Shown here piece after piece: positions 1,838-11,483 of a stretch of 12,970 nucleotides of DNA (positions within the stretch are counted from its first letter, which is position 1; every line of letters starts with the position of its first letter). Source of the stretch: Octopus sinensis (Eukaryota); NCBI RefSeq assembly GCF_006345805.1, contig NW_021826450.1, forward strand, positions 1 to 12,970, written 5' to 3'. Under the pieces are notes generated by a model, which was not told the origin of the DNA, searched no databases, and was given only the letters and a program-made list of their open reading frames with translations. The translations under genes and the position numbers were made by a program.

Positions 1838-2234
1838 CTAGCAGTATCGCCCGGCGTTGCTCGGGTTTGTAAGGGAAATAACTATATAAGCATTTTTAGA
1901 GAGTTATAGCCAAAAAATAGTAAAAAAATGCACTAAAAATGGGAAAAAAATGATGGTAAATTTTTTTTTAAATCGTTGACTCATCGTAGACATTTTTAGA
2001 GAGTTACTTCCCTTATATAATAGCGAAAAATGCATTAAAATGAAAAAAAATGAAGGTAAATTATTTTAAAAATCGTAGACTCATCGTAGACGCGCGCTAA
2101 TACCCAGAAGGGCTCGATATGAATCACGACTATAAGATACCTGGTTTTGGTTAAACTGCACCGCAAAATGTGGGAGTAGTTAGGAATCTAAATCGTAGGA
2201 GACAGACACACAACTTCACTTTTATATATAAAGA
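1838..2234 (-). mobile_element. Non-autonomous Helitron, copy 1 (397 bp)
   Basis: Minus strand begins TCTTTATATATAAAAG and ends with hairpin CCCG-AGCAACGC-CGGG then CTAG followed by T. Roughly 95% identical by eye to 2945-3340. Confidence 0.92.
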
Positions 2235-2749
2235 CTAGCAGTATCGCCCGGCGTTGCTCGGGTTTGTAAGGGAAATAACTATATAAGCATTTTTAGAGAG
2301 TTACTTCCCTTATAGATGCCAATCAATTCGGGCTTTCTTAGCCATTTCTGTTTGGTGTCTTCAGCCATGAAGTCGTTGTTCTAAAAGAACGCTGGTTTCC
2401 TTGACAACGCTTTACGACGTTGATTTCCTTACACTCCCTTCCCACAGCTTCACGAGGGAGGGAAGCGGGGGAGAAGCAAACAGGTGCAGGTGTGACCATG
2501 GACGCCAACTCCGCCGCCAGTCGACACACGAAAATTATGCATTAAAATGGAATAAAAAATGATGTTAAATTATTTTTTAAAATCGTAGACTCATCGTAGA
2601 CGCGCGCTAATAGCAGACGGGCTCGATATGATCACGACTATAAGATACCCGAATTTGGTTAACTACTGCAAACCGCAAATGTGGGAGTAGTTAGGAATCT
2701 AAATCGAAGGGGACAGACACTCACACAACTACAGTTTTATATATATAGA
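2235..2749 (-). mobile_element. Non-autonomous Helitron, copy 2 (515 bp variant with unique middle)
   Basis: A|TCTATATATATAAAA 5' end, same 3' hairpin and CTAG. Abuts copy 1 exactly. Unique GC-richer segment at about 2314-2535. Confidence 0.9.
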
Positions 2750-2879: not shown

Positions 2880-2946
2880 TAACTCATAAAATCTTCAACG
2901 CCATATTTTAAATTATATAACGTTAAACCATGGGAGATTTCATATC
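2880..2946. repeat. Direct repeat copy 1 flanking Helitron copy 3
   Basis: Matches 3341-3407 with one mismatch (T2909/G3370). Last 2 nt overlap the Helitron TC. Confidence 0.95.
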
Positions 2947-3340
2947 TTTATATATAAAAGTAAGGTTGTGTGTCTGTCTCCTACGATTTAGATTCCTAAC
3001 TACTCCCACATTTTGCGGTTCAGTTTAACCAAAACCGGATATCTTATAGTCGTGATTCATATCGAGCCCTTCTGGGTATTAGCGCGCGTCTACGATGAGT
3101 CTACGATTTTAAAAATAATTTACCATCATTTTTTTCCATTTTAATGCATTTTTTCGCTATTATATAAGGGAAGTAACTCTCTAAAAATGTCTACGATGAG
3201 TCAACGATTTAAAAAAAAATTACCATCATTTTTTTTCCATTTTTAATGCATTTTTTGCTATTTTTTGGCTATAACTCTCTAAAAATGCTTATATAGTTAT
3301 TTCTCTTACAAACCCGAGCAACGCCGGGCGATACTGCTAG
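2945..3340 (+). mobile_element. Non-autonomous Helitron, copy 3 (396 bp)
   Basis: A|TC start, subterminal hairpin 3313-3328, CTAG|T end. Internal ~100-bp duplicated module starting GTCTACGATGAGTC (3088, 3189). Confidence 0.93.
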
Positions 3341-3407
3341 TAACTCATAAAATCTTCAACGCCATATTTGAAATTATATAACGTTAAACCATGGGAGATT
3401 TCATATC
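3341..3407. repeat. Direct repeat copy 2 flanking Helitron copy 3
   Basis: Matches 2880-2946 at offset 461. Confidence 0.95.
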
Positions 3408-3879
3408 ATGATATATATCCTTACAATTCTTTTTATTTTTATGTGTTATGTATCTCCGCGCCTGTGTTTTGTGTGTGTGTGTGTGTGTGTACTTTTTTAA
3501 TGTTTTGTGTAAAAAAAAATTACAATAACAATACTAACATCAGCAAAAGAAAAACAGCAGCAGCAGCCGCAACAACAACAACTGCAACGCAATACAATTC
3601 GTCTCTCAATTTGCTATAAAAGATGTTTTTCTAAATACTCGCTTCCTGCAAATTCTTCAAGATTTTTTAATCGTTTTGCTGGGAGGTGGGTAAGAAAACA
3701 ACATTATGTTATGACATCCGTGCCGCTCCCCACCGTTGGGTCTAACCAGGTATTATGAAGGAAAAAATGGAGGAAGCTCAGAAAACGTGTTGTTGCATAA
3801 CAGAAACCATCTTGATTTCTTATTTGTTGTATAGTTTAGTCAGTGCTTTTTGGGGAGCTTTTTTTCGTGGTTAAATTTA

Positions 3880-4391: not shown

Positions 4392-4732
<341 letters not shown>

Positions 4733-4869: not shown

Positions 4870-5010
4870 GATAGATAGAGATAGATAGATAGATAGGACA
4901 GAGAGAGAGTGAGAGATAGATAGATAGAGACAGAGAGAGTGATAGATAGATAGATAGATAGATAAAGACAGAGAGAGTGATAGATAGATAGATAAATAGA
5001 TAGATAGATA
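4733..5010. repeat. Compound (GACA)n/(GATA)n microsatellite
   Basis: Direct inspection; includes the variant unit GACAGAGAGAGTGA several times. Confidence 0.97.
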
Positions 5011-6133
5011 AGTTTCTTTATTGGCCACACAGGGCTGCACACAGATGGGACAAGTTACAAGGTAGAGCTTTTCTTTTGGGGGAGAAAAAAAAATGGTTGC
5101 GTAGGTTTTCGATCAAAAGGAATCGTAAAAGGGAAAAAGAACAAAAAAAAGAAAAAAAGGAAAAAAAAAAAAGAAAAAAAGGAAAAAAAAAAAAGAAAAA
5201 AGGGAAAAAATGAAAAGAAAAATGAAAAAAGAGGAAAAAAGGGGGAGAGGGAAAAAAACGATCAATAGGGATCGTGTATCACAGTGTCATGATGTATGGT
5301 GTAAAGGGGAAAGCAAGTAAGGTTTATCCGTGGGAAGAAAAGCCTACGAAAAAGACCACGGTAACCTTGGTCAATATTGTTATATGTTACCACATTTGTT
5401 TGCAAGTGGGTAACGCTCTGTTTTCAATTTCTGGGTTCATAGGATTATGCTCAAGGTGGCTTCGTCATTCATACGTGCCATCCTTGCTACATTCACCCAT
5501 CTTTTTTTAAAACATTCGCTAGACAAAACTTGCTTCTCTACTCTTACTTTCCTTTTCAAGTGGTACTTGAAGAAGTTGATGAGAGGTTGACCAGAGAGGA
5601 AAGTGTTTGTCTCCAATCCTTTCAGACGCGTCCACCAGATACATTCTTTCGCCATAGCCACAAGGATGATGAAAATAGCTCTTCCTTCCCGTTTGAAGGA
5701 AGGAGGCGTGACAATATTGACGATAGACTCAGCTGATAAACCGACTCGTCCCACACGTGACAGCAGTTGTTCGACATAAGCCCACAGGTCGGACACTGCA
5801 CGATTGCGTGCAGAACGGTTTCGTCGCTCTGACCGCATCTCGGGCAGATCGGCCCCATGTTTCTCGAGCCGTGTCTGTAGAGCTTATCCCGAACGGGTAA
5901 CGCTTCTCGGTAGCACTGCCAGGCCAGGGATCTCTGGAAGTTGTCCATGGGCCCTGGCCCGAAAGTCGTCCCGAACAGGCGGGTCAGGTATTCCTCGTCG
6001 ACGTCCAGGTTCGCCCCGAGCTCGTCGTCGTACCTCCCCTCCACTAATCCCCTATAGAATGCTTTGGTTGTGTTGAAGTCACTCAAGGTTGACCCAGGAC
6101 GACAGAGTTGCTTGAGAGCAACGCGACACTCGC
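5011..6133 (-). mobile_element. 5'-truncated non-LTR retrotransposon of L1/Tx1 type (about 1.12 kb)
   Basis: ORF2 C-terminus with CCHC zf-RVT motif, stop at 5437-5439, ~425-nt 3'UTR with U-rich tracts and AATAAA just before the end. GATA arrays at both junctions. Confidence 0.9.
5437..6133 (-). pseudogene. LINE ORF2 C-terminal fragment (zinc-binding zf-RVT region), frameshifted
   Basis: Frame open from the 5' junction: ECRVALKQL...LAWQCYREALPVRDKL...CPRCGQSDETVLHAIVQCP. One frameshift near 5790 leads into SDLWAYVEQLL...AKECIWWTR...FKKRW...SIIL*. Cx2C-ETxxH-x4-C and IWxxR are typical of L1/Tx1 ORF2. Confidence 0.88.
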
Positions 6134-6352: not shown

Positions 6353-6511
6353 AGTTTCTTTATTGGCCACACAGGGCTGCACACAGATGGGACAAGTTAC
6401 AAGGTAGAGCTTTTCTTTTGGGGATGAAGAGAACAAAAAACAAAAGAAAAAAAAACGGGGTGGCGTAGGTTTTCGATCAAGAGGGATCGTAAAAGGGAAG
6501 AAAAAAAGTGG
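6353..6511 (-). mobile_element. 5'-truncated 3'UTR stub of the same LINE
   Basis: 6353-6423 is identical to 5011-5081; downstream GCGTAGGTTTTCGATCAA..GG.ATCGTAAAAGGGAA is shared. Confidence 0.92.
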
Positions 6512-6735
<224 letters not shown>

Positions 6736-6974
6736 AATATGTAAAGGTATATACTGATAGATAAGCTGACACCTAGATAGGTAAATAGGTTGACAGGCAA
6801 ACAAATAGATTAATAGATATGATCGATTGGCAGATTAATAAAGACATAGGTGAGTGAATCAATCTATCAGTCGATAGACAGAGAAGTTAGTTCAAACATT
6901 CTTTATGCAGCCAGTAATAAAATAGCCTTGAAGTACATAGATCGATCGATCGATAAATAAGCTAAACGTTAACG

Positions 6975-7140
6975 TGAACATTAATAAACGACCTAGAAAT
7001 AGTTATATGTTAAGGAGAAAGAAGGAAATACAATATTAACCATTGGCTATCAATGTTATAATTATTTCAACAAGAAGGGGAAACCACTCTGGAATATTTC
7101 GACCTTATTATAACCTCATCAGGTAACCTTAAAATTCACT
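6975..7140. repeat. 166-bp direct repeat copy 1 flanking SINE A
   Basis: Matches 7554-7719 (offset 579) with 3 substitutions (7025, 7029, 7034). Confidence 0.96.
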
Positions 7141-7555
7141 TTTTTTTTTTTTTTTTTACTTGTTTCAGTCATTTGACTGCGGCCATGCTGGAGCACCGCC
7201 TTCAGTCGAGCAAATCGACCCCGGGACTTATTCTTTGTAAGCCCAGTACTTATTCTATCGGTCTCTTTTGCCGAACCGCTAAGTGACGGGGACGTAAACA
7301 CACCAGCATCGGTTGTCAAGCAATGCTAGGGGAACAAACACAGACACACAAACATATACACACACATACATACATATATATATATATACATATATACGAC
7401 AGGCTTCTTTCAGTTTCCGTCTACCAAATCCACTCACAAGGTTTTGGTCGGCCCGAGGCTATAGCAGAAGACACTTGCCCAAGATGCCACGCAGTGGGAC
7501 TGAACCCGGAACCATGTGGTTGGTTAGCAAGCTACTTACCACACAGCCACTCCTG
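7141..7555 (-). mobile_element. SINE family A, near full length, poly(A) tail
   Basis: Minus strand: TGGCTGTGTGG (A box), GGGTTCAGTCCC (B-box-like), CORE-like CTTGGGCAAGT, internal microsatellite, 3' hairpin, A17 tail. Resembles octopus OR-type tRNA-derived SINEs (from memory). Confidence 0.93.
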
Positions 7556-7719
7556 AACATTAATAAACGACCTAGAAATAGTTATATGTTAAGGAGAAAG
7601 AAGAAAACACAACATTAACCATTGGCTATCAATGTTATAATTATTTCAACAAGAAGGGGAAACCACTCTGGAATATTTCGACCTTATTATAACCTCATCA
7701 GGTAACCTTAAAATTCACT
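7554..7719. repeat. 166-bp direct repeat copy 2 flanking SINE A
   Basis: Matches 6975-7140. Confidence 0.96.
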
Positions 7720-7790
7720 GTGGTTGCCGAAGTAGTGAATAAGCATAAAATGCTGTACATTGGTTGGTATAGACTCCTAGAAGTGCTTAA

Positions 7791-8740
7791 CTGATTGTTT
7801 TCATATCACTGTTGAAATACACTGCCTCTGTTTCGATTAATTTTGGAAATAATAAATTCTACTCTTGGCACAAGGCCTTGATAATTTTGGGGGAAGGGGA
7901 CTAGTCGATTACATCGACCCCAGTGCGTAACTGGTACTTATTTCATCGATCCCCGAAAGGATGAAAGGCAAAGTCGAGCTCGGCGGAATTTGAACTCAAA
8001 ACGTAGTAGCCGCTGAAATACCTATTTCTTTACTACCCACAAGGGGCTAAACACAGAGGAGACAAACAAGGACAGGCAAACGGATTAAGTCGATTATATC
8101 GACCCCAGTGCGTAACTGGTACTTATTTAATCGATCCCGAAAGGATGAAAGGCAAAGTCGAACTCGGCGGAATTTGAACTCAGAACGTAGCGGCAAACGA
8201 AATACCTATTTCTATTTCTTTACCACCAACAAGGGCCTAAACACAGGGAGGACAAACAAGGACAGACAAACGGATTAAGTCGATTATATCGACCCCAGTG
8301 CGTAACTGGTACTCATTCAATCGACCCCGAAAGGATAAAAGGCAAAGCCGACCTCGGCGGAATTTGAACTCAGAACGTAGTAGCCGCTGAAATACCTATT
8401 TCTTTATTACCCACAAAGGGCTAAACACAGAGGGGACAAACAAGGACAGACAAAGGGATTAAGTCGATTGTATCGACCCCAGTGCGTAACTGGTACTTAT
8501 TAAATCGATCCCGAAAGTATAAAGGCAAAATCGACCTCGGCGGAATTTGAACCCAGAACGTAACGGCAGACGAAATACGGCTACGAATTTCGCCCGGCGT
8601 GTTAACGTTTCTGCCAGCTCGCCACCCTCTAATTTTCGAAATAATGAAGAATCTAATAAAATAAACTTGTCATTATTGATTTGATGTTTGGAACATAAAC
8701 CAACATGAAATTTTGACAGAAGGTTTTAATCTAGATCACT
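7791..8740 (+). mobile_element. Degenerate TTAA-type MITE copy 1, interrupted by the SINE B tetramer
   Basis: 7791-7853 joined to 8646-8744 aligns with 8745-8824 joined to 10091-10156 (CTTGTCATTATT, TGTTTGGAACA, AATTTTGA..GAAG, TTTTAAT). Preceded by TTAA at 7787-7790. Confidence 0.6.
7854..8629 (-). mobile_element. SINE family B tetramer with one head, four cores and two tail types
   Basis: AGTCGATT recurs at 7903, 8088, 8278, 8462 (periods 185, 190, 184). Single A-box head at about 8580-8627. 16-bp TSD TAATTTT(G/C)GAAATAAT at 7838-7853 and 8630-8645. Confidence 0.92.
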
Positions 8741-9010
8741 TTAACCCTTTTGTTACAATATTTCTTTTTAAATATACCGACTTCGTTTTAATTCTGAAAA
8801 TAATGCAGAGCTTGTCATTATTAAGCCCTTAATGGATTATCCCGAGTTTACTCGTGCATCGCAAACGTATCTTTTTAGAACCAGACGAGTATACTCGGTC
8901 AAAATTAACTTTTAATTTTAACACCCAAACGAGTTTATTTGTTTTGTGTCGTTTCATTTTTGAGCAATTACGAATTTACTCACGTTGTTTTAAAAAAATG
9001 AGTATTTTTT

Positions 9011-9388
9011 TTTTTTCATTTGATGGATTTGGCCATCTGGAATGCTTATGTTTTGTATAAAGCATCTTTGGAAACTTCAGCTTCTGCTATGAAACCGCTG
9101 AAATTTAGGATGCAAACAATCACCAAGATTATTGAAAAATATAGGCCCTTATTGCCTCCCACGAAACCAGGAAGACCATCATCGATCCCACATTCAACAA
9201 GATTTGCCCCAGCTGGTCACTTTCCCATGGAAATACCACCAAGTGATAAGAAAAAGAACCCTACAAGATAGTGTGCAAAATGCGCAGAGAAGAGAGACGC
9301 TAAAGGAAAGAAGATTCGAAGAGAAAGCAGATACATGTGTGATGTCTGCAAGATAACTCTTTGTTTTAAAAATTATCATTCTAAATAA
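9011..9388 (+). pseudogene. piggyBac (PGBD4-like) transposase C-terminal remnant
   Basis: FFHLMDLAIWNAYVLYK...LKFRMQ...GHFP...NPTR*CAKC...RRESRYMCDVCKITLCFKNYH: end of the catalytic domain plus the Cys-rich domain, with an in-frame stop at 9269-9271. Confidence 0.9.
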
Positions 9389-9528
9389 ACTAGCTCATTT
9401 AAAAAAAATTTTCCTTCGATTTAAAAGCAATACATCTTATAAAAAACCGAAAATAGTTAAGTTATATGTATTTTTTCAATGTCCGAGTTAACTCGTTTAA
9501 ATCCAAATGAGTAAAAGTACATTTAAAA

Positions 9529-9942
9529 TCTTTATATATAAAAGTAAGGTTGTGTGCTGTCTGTCTCCTACGATTTAGATTCCTAACTACTCCCACATTT
9601 TGCGGCGCAGTTTAACCAAAACCGGGTATCTTATAGTCGTGATTCATATACCTTCTGGGTATTAGCGCGCATCTACGATGAGTCTACGACTTAAAAAATA
9701 ATTTACCATCAATTTTTCCCATTTTTAATGCATTTTTGGCATATATAAGGGCATATATAATATAATATAAGGGCATATATAATAAAAATTTATTATTAAA
9801 TCTCAGGACGTAAAAAACTACAGTAACACCCCCCACATTTGTGGTTAGCCATATTGAGATGGCTATTATACTTTACATCTTTAAAAATGCTTATATAGTT
9901 ATTTCCCTTACAAACCCGAGCAACGCCGGGCGATACTGCTAG
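9529..9942 (+). mobile_element. Non-autonomous Helitron, copy 4 (414 bp variant) nested in the piggyBac
   Basis: A|TC start, same 5' ~210 bp and 3' ~60 bp as copy 3, CTAG|T end, no TSD. Different middle at about 9752-9880. Confidence 0.92.
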
Positions 9943-10246
9943 TTCTATAATAAATAAATAAAGGAAACAAGATAAAAAAAACCCACTTTTTTTTGTAATT
10001 AACACAGTGTATATAATTAAAAAAGGAAATTAGAAAATATGCTCTGAAATGAAAGGCCATGTCAAAATAATTGATCCATTCAGGGGTTAAGCTGGTGTTT
10101 GGAACAGAGATTAAGATGGAATTTTGATGGAAGTTTTAATTTAAAACCCTTTTAAACAGGGAGTTGGAATCGTAGAGCCAGGGAGAGTCCCAGGTGGGTT
10201 GGTATAAAAACAGACATAATATCAAAAGACTTGGTATGAAAAGAGA

Positions 10247-10662
10247 CTTTTTTCTCTTTTTCTCTTTTACTCTTTTACTTGTTTCAGTCATTTGAATGCG
10301 GCCATACTGGAGCACAGCCTTTAGTCGAGCAAATCGACCCCGGGACTTATTCTTTGTAAGCCCAGTACTTATTCTATCGGTCTCTTTTGCCGAACCGCTA
10401 AGTAACGGGGACGTAAACACACCAGCATCGGTTGTCAAGCAATGCTAAGGGTACAAACACAGACACACAAACATATACACACACATACATATATATATAT
10501 ACGACGGGCTTCTTTCAGTTTCCGTCTACCAAATCCACTCACAAGGCTTTGGTCGGCCCGAGGCTATAGCAGAAGACACTTGCCCAAGGTGCCACGCCGT
10601 GGGACTGAACCCGGAACCATGTGGTTGGTAAGCAAGCTACTTACCACAGCCACTCCTGCGCC
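10247..10662 (-). mobile_element. SINE family A, full length
   Basis: Highly similar to 7158-7555; 5' end GGCGCAGGAGTGGCTGTGG; tail of GAGTAAAA/GAGAAAAA repeats. No clear TSD seen. Confidence 0.93.
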
Positions 10663-10846: not shown

Positions 10847-10919
10847 TCTATCAAATCCACTCACAAGGTTTTGTCAGCTCGAGGCTACAGTAGAAGTGGG
10901 GCTGCACTAGGAACCACGC
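10847..10919 (-). mobile_element. Degenerate internal fragment of SINE A
   Basis: CAAATCCACTCACAAGGTTTTG...CGAGGCTACAGTAGAAG matches 10530-10575. Confidence 0.7.
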
Positions 10920-10931
10920 GACTCACAAAAT

Positions 10932-11261
10932 CACACCTACACTCAAGAACCACGCCCACCTTCACACCTACACTCAAGAACCATGTCCTCCACCTTCACA
11001 CCTACACACAAAAACCACGCCCACCTTCACACCTACACTCAAGAACCACACCCACCTTCATACCTACACTCGAGAACCACGCCCACCTTCATACTTACAC
11101 TCAAGAACCACGCCCACCTTGGCACCTACACTCAAGAACCATGCCCACCTTCACACCTACACTCAAGAACCACGCCACCTTCACACCTACACTCAAGAAC
11201 CACGCCCACCTTCACACCTACACTCAATAACCACGCCCACCTTCATACCTACATTCAAGAA
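10932..11261. repeat. 31-bp minisatellite, about 10.6 copies
   Basis: Unit CACACCTACACTCAAGAACCACGCCCACCTT starting at 10932, 10963, 10997, 11028, 11059, 11090, 11121, 11152, 11182, 11213, 11244; a decayed copy near 11370. Confidence 0.95.
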
Positions 11262-11426: not shown

Positions 11427-11483
11427 ATATATTTCCTGCTCATAGTATGAAAGAAAGGCAAGGTCGCTACATAGAACTACCAG
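11427..11483 (+). CDS. Candidate 57-bp internal coding exon (phase 1-1) of an unidentified host gene
   Basis: Acceptor TATTTTCTTTGTTCTTCCAG| with a CTCAC branch-like motif about 25 nt upstream, donor CAG|GTAAGA. Only one frame is open: xIFPAHSMKERQGRYIELPx. Confidence 0.55.

What the first reader, a model, noticed from the sequence alone, without database searches (positions are those of the whole stretch)
6975..7719. SINE with a 166-bp apparent target-site duplication
Seen: the duplication abuts both SINE ends exactly (3 mismatches; TG microhomology at the 5' junction), and this copy has a pure A17 tail where its sisters have GAGTAAAA-type tails. Knowledge: TPRT TSDs are usually under about 20 bp, with long ones exceptional (for example rotifer R9). 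Inference: distant second-strand nick, or insertion during break repair. A second long duplication in the same 13 kb hints at a host repair effect.
Basis: partly seen in the sequence, partly recalled or inferred. Interest (0 to 1): 0.7.

Follow-up and report, generated by a model that had tools for sequence, protein, structure and literature searches.

The report
SINE with 166-bp flanking duplication
A short jumping-gene copy (SINE) in what is likely an octopus genome sits between two near-identical 166-base stretches, most likely a rare but already described outcome of insertion with two far-apart DNA cuts, though an assembly error is not excluded.

Summary
Observation confirmed: 6975-7140 and 7554-7719 are a 166-bp direct repeat (3 substitutions, all within 10 nt; no indel) bracketing a near-full-length tRNA-type SINE (minus strand, A17 tail, TG shared at the 5' junction). 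The 'second duplication' is 65 bp around a Helitron-like DNA element (2945-3340), a class that normally leaves no target duplication, so it is not a second TPRT case. The five other insertion sites with both ends visible have ordinary or no duplications, one of them 16-19 bp and 120 bp away. Best reading (0.5): real TPRT with a second nick about 166 nt away. Both junctions look native, and a simulated filled/empty heterozygote gave this structure in 0 of 336 consensus rounds. Rivals: assembly artefact (0.27; mismatch rate fits allelic divergence, and the outer end is a unitig boundary at k=49-51) and a real splice between two alleles or sisters (0.18; strongest for the Helitron). No empty site or reads were available. 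TSDs over 100 bp are known (HeLa L1, Dualen, R9), so one copy is modestly interesting; a lineage-wide effect on both SINEs and Helitrons would be more so.

The parts
6975..7140 (.). Left copy of the 166-bp duplicated unit; its right end is the likely TPRT priming site (first nick, + strand, at 7139/7140)
   Evidence: ends in ACT, the complement of the family's tail triplet AGT
7141..7157 (-). A17 tail of the SINE (T run 7140-7157, first base shared with the duplication)
7141..7555 (-). tRNA-type SINE, about 415 nt: A-box-like motif starting at 7549, B-box-like motif starting at 7506, internal (TA/TG)n microsatellite; 4 nt shorter at the 5' end than the sister at 10241-10662
   Evidence: 12 substitutions in 344 aligned bases against that sister
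7554..7555 (.). TG microhomology shared by the SINE 5' end and the start of the duplicated unit
7554..7719 (.). Right copy of the 166-bp unit
7025..7034 (.). Cluster of all three differences between the copies (G/A, T/C, T/C; all transitions)
6966..6984 (.). Far breakpoint region: a 10-bp palindrome (6966-6975) and an 11-mer (6974-6984) whose reverse complement matches the 11 nt before the first nick (7129-7139) at 9 of 11; candidate second-nick site (weak evidence)
2945..3340 (+). Non-autonomous Helitron-like element (5' TC, 3' CTAG, A|T at both junctions) carrying the second long flanking duplication
2880..2944 (.). Left copy of the 65-bp duplication around the Helitron-like element
3341..3405 (.). 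Right copy of the 65-bp duplication (1 mismatch, 2909 T / 3370 G); the flank after it matches the element's own 5' end at 10 of 12

Best explanation
The SINE lies between two 166-bp direct repeats that most likely are a true, unusually long target-site duplication, made when a partner LINE's enzyme primed reverse transcription at a nick near 7140 and the opposite strand was probably cut about 166 nt away near 6974. Shown: the repeat, the intact SINE, the A17 tail abutting one copy, the TG overlap at the other. Inferred steps: (1) + strand nick at 7139/7140, primer ending in ACT pairs with the RNA tail and RT slips on the A run; (2) cDNA runs to within 4 nt of the SINE 5' end; (3) a minus-strand nick near 6966-6976 and unwinding give two long 3' overhangs; (4) the cDNA end anneals through TG and fill-in copies the unit twice; (5) one later multi-base change gives the three differences. 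It is a one-off event of a known class. The Helitron case nearby probably has a different cause.
For: Both junctions carry TPRT marks: tail flush with the repeat and a 1-3 nt overlap, near-complete 5' end with 2-nt microhomology; 3' overlaps of one to several bp are usual for RTE/CR1/L2 insertions (PMC6007223, section 18 read). Simulated windowed consensus of a filled/empty heterozygote gave an intact element with a flanking duplication in 0 of 336 rounds (168 runs, both sites) and 0 of 48 pilot runs. The sequence before the first nick matches the opposite strand at the far end at 9 of 11 (P 0.007-0.014; 0.017-0.03 for the best of four geometries), as expected if one enzyme cut both strands. 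Copy divergence (3/166, 95% interval 0.4-5.3%) is compatible with the 3.5% distance to the nearest sister. Precedent: L1 TSDs over 100 bp in up to 10% of HeLa events and 57-91% in NER-deficient cells (PMC5223499, passages); Dualen duplications of median 900 bp and R9 126 bp (bioRxiv 2022.05.23.493040 and PMC6895275, passages).
Against: No empty site or reads. 3/166 and 1/65 also match allelic divergence (1.22% heterozygosity in O. vulgaris, bioRxiv 2023.05.16.540928, passage). The first mismatch lies 50 nt from the outer end, which is a de Bruijn unitig boundary at k = 49-51. The 20 nt before the two breakpoints also match in direct register (12/20, P 0.003 for that window, 0.02-0.14 for others; 2nd of 381 offsets), which a single staggered cut does not predict. 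The nick site fits neither the L1 motif nor the RTE T-stretch signature. A Helitron-like element 4 kb away has the same anatomy, which TPRT cannot explain. A dog SINE/LINE survey ascribed a 130-bp-flanked locus to homology-mediated processes (PMC13141329, passage).
Confidence: 0.5

Rival explanations
1. Assembly artefact: the two copies come from the two haplotypes of one diploid animal. Either a contig of the empty haplotype was pasted whole behind a gap filled with the SINE, or a consensus fused two haplotypes that carry separate family copies on either side of the unit.
For: Mismatch rates fit heterozygosity. The outer end equals a unitig start at k = 49-51 (that k = 51 is a common choice, also for an octopus short-read assembly, is recalled and was not found). 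A two-insertion heterozygote gave an intact element with part of the unit duplicated in 17 of 168 simulated rounds. One pipeline fault would explain two cases in 13 kb across unrelated element classes.
Against: A simple filled/empty heterozygote gave 0 of 336 (my own Racon-like model, which does not cover gap fillers or contig stitching). The Helitron case needs k = 29-30 or 36-38, not 49-51. No N in the window and 190-220-bp GATA arrays resolved, which suggests long reads. The TG overlap and the inverted 9/11 match would be coincidences. The two-insertion route needs two independent, same-family, same-strand insertions within 166 bp.
Confidence: 0.27
2. Real, but made from two DNA duplexes: an ordinary insertion followed by a misaligned exchange or template switch with the empty homologue or sister, or cDNA bridging nicks on two sisters, or crossover between two nearby family copies.
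For: Direct-register similarity before both breakpoints in both events (10/16 each, P 0.004 at that window). For the Helitron-like element the junction similarity is 20/28 and ranks 1 of 381 offsets on 4 of 5 scores. Explains a 'TSD' at an element class that makes none (PMC13286980, PMC4778049, passages) and allele-like differences.
Against: For the SINE the similarity is weaker (2 of 381 on upstream identity, 12-15 of 381 on X-drop scores), window-dependent and post hoc, and ends in a mismatch at the junction. The junction at 7140 looks like a native priming site (ACT/AGT). For the Helitron, the match to its own 5' end could be target preference: copy 2235-2749 sits exactly at the 5' end of copy 1838-2234.
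Confidence: 0.18
3. The SINE inserted by ordinary TPRT exactly at the junction of a pre-existing 166-bp tandem duplication.
For: Similarity between the unit's end and the flank before it is typical of slippage-made duplications; differences could predate the insertion.
Against: Needs an insertion at one exact base and no short TSD of its own, twice in 13 kb; there is no sign of a wider tandem array.
Confidence: 0.05

Closest known systems
L1 insertions with large TSDs in cultured cells (Servant et al., PMC5223499; passages read)
   Same: TPRT insert with A tail flanked by a duplication over 100 bp; proposed distant second nick under host (NER) control.
   Different: Engineered L1 in human and hamster lines; here a single natural SINE copy in an assembled invertebrate genome, nick site not TTTT/AA, no empty site known.
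Dualen-4b LINE, and Helitron/Replitron TSDs, in Chlamydomonas reinhardtii (bioRxiv 2022.05.23.493040; PMC10288648; passages read)
   Same: Long variable duplications flanking a LINE (over half above 50 bp), and non-canonical TSDs at HUH-type elements in the same host: the nearest precedent for the SINE + Helitron pairing.
   Different: Those are de novo events with known empty sites and a family-wide trait; here 2 of 7 sites, each a lone copy in its family.
R9 of Adineta vaga, 126-bp TSD (cited in PMC6895275 and the Chlamydomonas preprint; original not read)
   Same: Duplication of similar length flanking a non-LTR element.
   Different: R9 is site-specific with a fixed stagger; the sister SINE here has no detectable TSD.
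RTE-related SINEs / Ceph-SINEs (PMC6007223 section 18 and passages; PMC5786205 passages)
   Same: tRNA-type head, microsatellite-like tail, short overlap of tail and target.
   Different: RTE TSDs are mostly 7-15 bp and follow a T stretch, which is absent here. Long direct repeats around C. elegans RTE-1 are recalled only; searches did not retrieve a statement of them.
Canonical Helitron (PMC4778049, PMC13286980; passages read)
   Same: 5' TC, 3' CTAG, insertion between A and T, head-to-tail junction in the window.
   Different: The copy at 2945-3340 has a 65-bp flanking duplication; canonical Helitrons have none.

Membership tests
tRNA-derived SINE | Internal Pol III A and B boxes in the head | tested here: met
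   A-box-like at SINE position 7, B-box-like at position 50 (consensus patterns recalled)
tRNA-derived SINE | Recognisable tRNA homology | tested here: inconclusive
   ARAGORN 0 genes; no Rfam tRNA hit at E<=1; head does not fold as a cloverleaf
tRNA-derived SINE | Short, dispersed, multi-copy, repeat or A tail | tested here: met
   About 415 nt; two close and two diverged relatives plus a fragment in 13 kb
True target-site duplication | Direct repeat abutting both ends | tested here: met
True target-site duplication | Empty site holds one copy; both copies on one molecule | not testable with these tools
   No octopod genome or reads on hand; a scan of prokaryotic genome contigs for the SINE gave 0 matches
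L1-type TPRT insertion | First nick at 5'-TTTT/AA-3' | tested here: not met
   Nicked strand reads CAC(T)/GT
RTE-mobilised SINE | TSD starts about 10 nt downstream of a T stretch | tested here: not met
   No T stretch in the 26 nt upstream in SINE sense (signature)
RTE-mobilised SINE | 3' tail shared with an RTE LINE | not testable with these tools
   No repeat library or partner LINE available; sisters' tandem tail is compatible
Ceph-SINE | Ceph (CORE + RTE 5'UTR) central domain | not testable with these tools
   Consensus sequences not available; figures and supplement of PMC5786205 not seen
Helitron (element 2945-3340) | 5' TC, 3' CTRR, insertion between A and T | tested here: met
   All four copies start TC and end CTAG; A|T at outer junctions
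Helitron (element 2945-3340) | Subterminal hairpin | tested here: inconclusive
   Hairpin predicted 12 nt from the end, -4.5 kcal/mol, z -1.06
Helitron (element 2945-3340) | No target-site duplication | tested here: not met
   65-bp flanking repeat at this copy; none at the other two sites of the family
Helitron (element 2945-3340) | Autonomous RepHel partner | not testable with these tools
   Only non-coding copies in the window

The most novel reading that the evidence does not exclude
In octopods, a shared host step (a far second cut and fill-in after a single strand has been joined to a nick) regularly gives 50-200-bp flanking duplications to both retroposons and Helitrons in the germline, making insertions a routine source of short duplications; such events have been missed because TSD searches stop at about 50 bp.
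Probability: 0.1. Interest if true: 0.7.

Novelty: new member of a known kind. Interest (0 to 1): 0.38.

Why it matters
How the second strand is cut in TPRT is still open. A natural SINE insertion with a 166-nt stagger and similar sequence at both cut sites would be a useful data point, and the paired Helitron case offers a direct test of a host-level cause, as suggested for Chlamydomonas. If it is an artefact, it marks a false-duplication pattern at heterozygous transposon sites that would mislead TSD and structural-variant surveys in that assembly. On its own, one unvalidated copy changes little.

Tried and rejected
Cruciform or panhandle between the unit's ends: not in the minimum-energy or centroid folds, z -1.35 and -1.42, although one partition-function run gave about 0.7 pairing for the first five bases; not relied on. 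Palindromes at junctions (10 bp and 12 bp; null 2.2% and 1.3%) do not fold better than shuffles; kept only as a note. Chimerism of the Helitron-like copy: four copies gave no usable signal; not testable for the SINE with so few copies. Exon in the duplicated unit: only a weak donor-like site near 7123 and no acceptor passing the scan. The unit as its own MITE or repeat: no third copy in the window. A 61-bp similarity around the piggyBac-like element is an older tandem repeat, not a third long TSD. 3' transduction: cannot put the same sequence on the 5' side. Literature: searches returned no report of a long TSD at an octopus SINE or Helitron; the library lacks most subscription papers, I read passages or single sections rather than whole texts (first third of PMC13282606), and saw no supplements; TSD length tables in the supplements of PMC13141329 and PMC12016303 could give a germline base rate.

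Full report
Setting. The window has no N and is packed with repeats and microsatellites. A LINE fragment at 5775-6131 (minus strand) carries a zf-RVT domain; 4 of its 11 protein hits are named from octopods (Argonauta hians twice, Octopus sinensis, O. bimaculoides), one is labelled as a bacterial MAG and six name no organism. An octopod origin is therefore inferred, the species unknown. No octopod genome or read set was searchable; a scan of prokaryotic contigs for the SINE found nothing.

Observation. 6975-7140 and 7554-7719 match over 166 bp with substitutions at 7025, 7029 and 7034 and no indel. Between them lies a SINE on the minus strand, about 415 nt, with A-box- and B-box-like motifs, 12 substitutions in 344 bases from the sister at 10241-10662 and 11 in 188 from the partial copy at the window start. 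Its tail is A17 plus one shared base; both close sisters have GAGTAAAA-type repeats. The last three bases of the unit (ACT) are the complement of the tail triplet AGT. The 5' end is 4 nt shorter than the sister's and shares TG with the unit. In a null of 150 random segments, abutting repeats of 20 nt or more occurred 5 times, all at this site, the Helitron site or GATA arrays. Three random mismatches fall within 10 nt of each other with P = 0.007, so they likely are one event.

The second duplication. 2880-2944 and 3341-3405 (65 bp, one mismatch) flank a 396-bp element that starts TC, ends CTAG and has A|T at both junctions. This is a Helitron-like DNA element, a class described as making no TSD. 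Of 7 insertion sites with both ends visible, 2 have long duplications; the sister SINE, the Helitron pair 1838-2749 and the Helitron 9529-9942 have none, a retroelement-like array at 7857-8629 has an ordinary 16-19-bp repeat, and a piggyBac-like element has TTAA. So any host effect is not general in this region.

Breakpoint sequence. In both events the 16 nt before the two breakpoints match at 10 of 16 in the register of the duplication (P 0.004 each; for the SINE 0.003-0.14 across eight windows, for the Helitron 0.004-0.14). For the Helitron the flank after the right copy also matches the element's own 5' end at 10 of 12 (3 of 8860 null positions), and the whole junction ranks 1 of 381 offsets on four of five scores; for the SINE the rank is 2 of 381 on upstream identity and 12-15 of 381 on the other scores. 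The mirror model (copy added on the right) has no support in either. For the SINE there is also an inverted match, 9 of 11, between the strand before the first nick and the opposite strand at the far end (P 0.007-0.014; best of four geometries 0.017-0.03), absent for the Helitron. These tests were post hoc and are modest. Read together: the Helitron case leans to an empty allele spliced onto a filled one (in the cell or in the computer), or to target preference for its own 5' motif; the SINE is ambiguous, with one signal for two cuts in one duplex and one for misalignment.

Artefact tests. I wrote a Racon-like windowed consensus and ran 252 two-round simulations with three aligners. Filled/empty heterozygotes gave an intact element with flank sequence on both sides in 0 of 336 rounds; they gave truncated elements or one allele. 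Heterozygotes with two separate insertions either side of the unit gave it, mostly with part of the unit, in 17 of 168 (pilot, 0 of 48). The model omits gap fillers and contig stitching. For those, a de Bruijn check shows the SINE duplication's outer end is a unitig start at k = 49-51, because the first mismatch is 50 nt in; the Helitron would need k = 29-30 or 36-38. One match among about a hundred k values is a lead, not proof. Divergence between copies (4 of 231 overall, interval 0.5-4.4%) fits both a young real duplication and 1.22% heterozygosity reported for O. vulgaris.

Mechanism. I commit to TPRT with a far second nick for the SINE (0.5): priming at 7139/7140 on the + strand, slippage on the A run, near-complete cDNA, minus-strand cut near 6974, joining through TG, fill-in. 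Only the product is shown; every step is inferred. Neither the L1 nor the RTE cut-site signature is met, so the partner LINE is unassigned and a pre-existing nick is possible. Rivals: artefact 0.27, real two-duplex splice 0.18, pre-existing tandem duplication 0.05. These numbers are my judgement from the tests above and from rough priors, not computed posteriors.

Known kinds. TPRT duplications over 100 bp are described for L1 in HeLa (up to 10% of events) and NER-deficient cells, Dualen (median 900 bp) and R9 (126 bp); typical TSDs are 20 bp or less, RTE mostly 7-15 bp. Chlamydomonas also has non-canonical TSDs at Helitrons and Replitrons. A dog survey warns that very long apparent TSDs can be homology-mediated. 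Many TSD surveys cap the length (10-49 bp; 5-25 bp), so a germline base rate for long ones was not found. My ten searches found no report for octopus SINEs or Helitrons. The event works like a long-TSD TPRT insertion; membership as a true TSD is untested.

Verdict. Real feature of the sequence as given, new example of a known kind, unvalidated. Interest 0.38. The bolder reading, a lineage-wide host step that gives long duplications to both SINEs and Helitrons, has about 0.1 probability and would merit 0.7; a genome-wide count in a HiFi assembly would settle it.

Noticed in passing
window 1838-2749 (minus strand): Two Helitron-like copies joined head to tail at 2234/2235 (CTAG directly onto TC), with different internal segments; a third copy lies only 195 bp away and a fourth at 9529-9942.
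   Followed up: partly
window 7025-7034 / 7604-7613: All three differences are transitions whose direction fits cytosine deamination on the two strands that a 166-nt stagger would leave single-stranded (1 in 8 by chance given transitions); predicts a mosaic empty allele. Speculative.
   Followed up: partly
window 8821-10090: piggyBac-like element: TTAA at both ends, short imperfect terminal inverted repeats, a transposase C-terminal zinc-finger remnant at 9272-9385 (PF13842, E 1e-4, just under cut-off) behind an in-frame stop; contains the Helitron 9529-9942.
   Followed up: partly
window 7857-8629: Retroelement-like insert with an internal 184-bp unit in 3.6 tandem copies, flanked by a 16-19-bp direct repeat (7838-7856 / 8630-8648), inside an older AT-rich repeat.
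   Followed up: partly
window 5010-6130, 4585-4730, 6353-6510 (minus strand): LINE 3' fragment with zf-RVT and two shorter copies of the same 3' end, each embedded in (GATA)n arrays; suggests a microsatellite-targeting LINE. 5011-5081 and 6353-6423 are 100% identical.
   Followed up: partly
window 11427-11483 (+): The only hit of a simple splice scan: a 57-nt candidate exon with a strong acceptor and a GTAAGA donor, so the window may be intronic.
   Followed up: no
window 10931-11261: 31-bp minisatellite, 10.6 copies, next to a SINE fragment at 10847-10896.
   Followed up: no
window 10241-10662: The sister SINE has no detectable TSD of 8 nt or more; the flank at its tail ends in AAAA-nnn-ACT like the priming site at 7140, though the tail boundary is ambiguous.
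   Followed up: partly
window 6966-6975, 3403-3414, 7713-7740: Perfect 10-bp and 12-bp palindromes and a 7-bp inverted repeat touch three of the four breakpoints (null 2.2%, 1.3%, 9%), without notable folding energy.
   Followed up: yes
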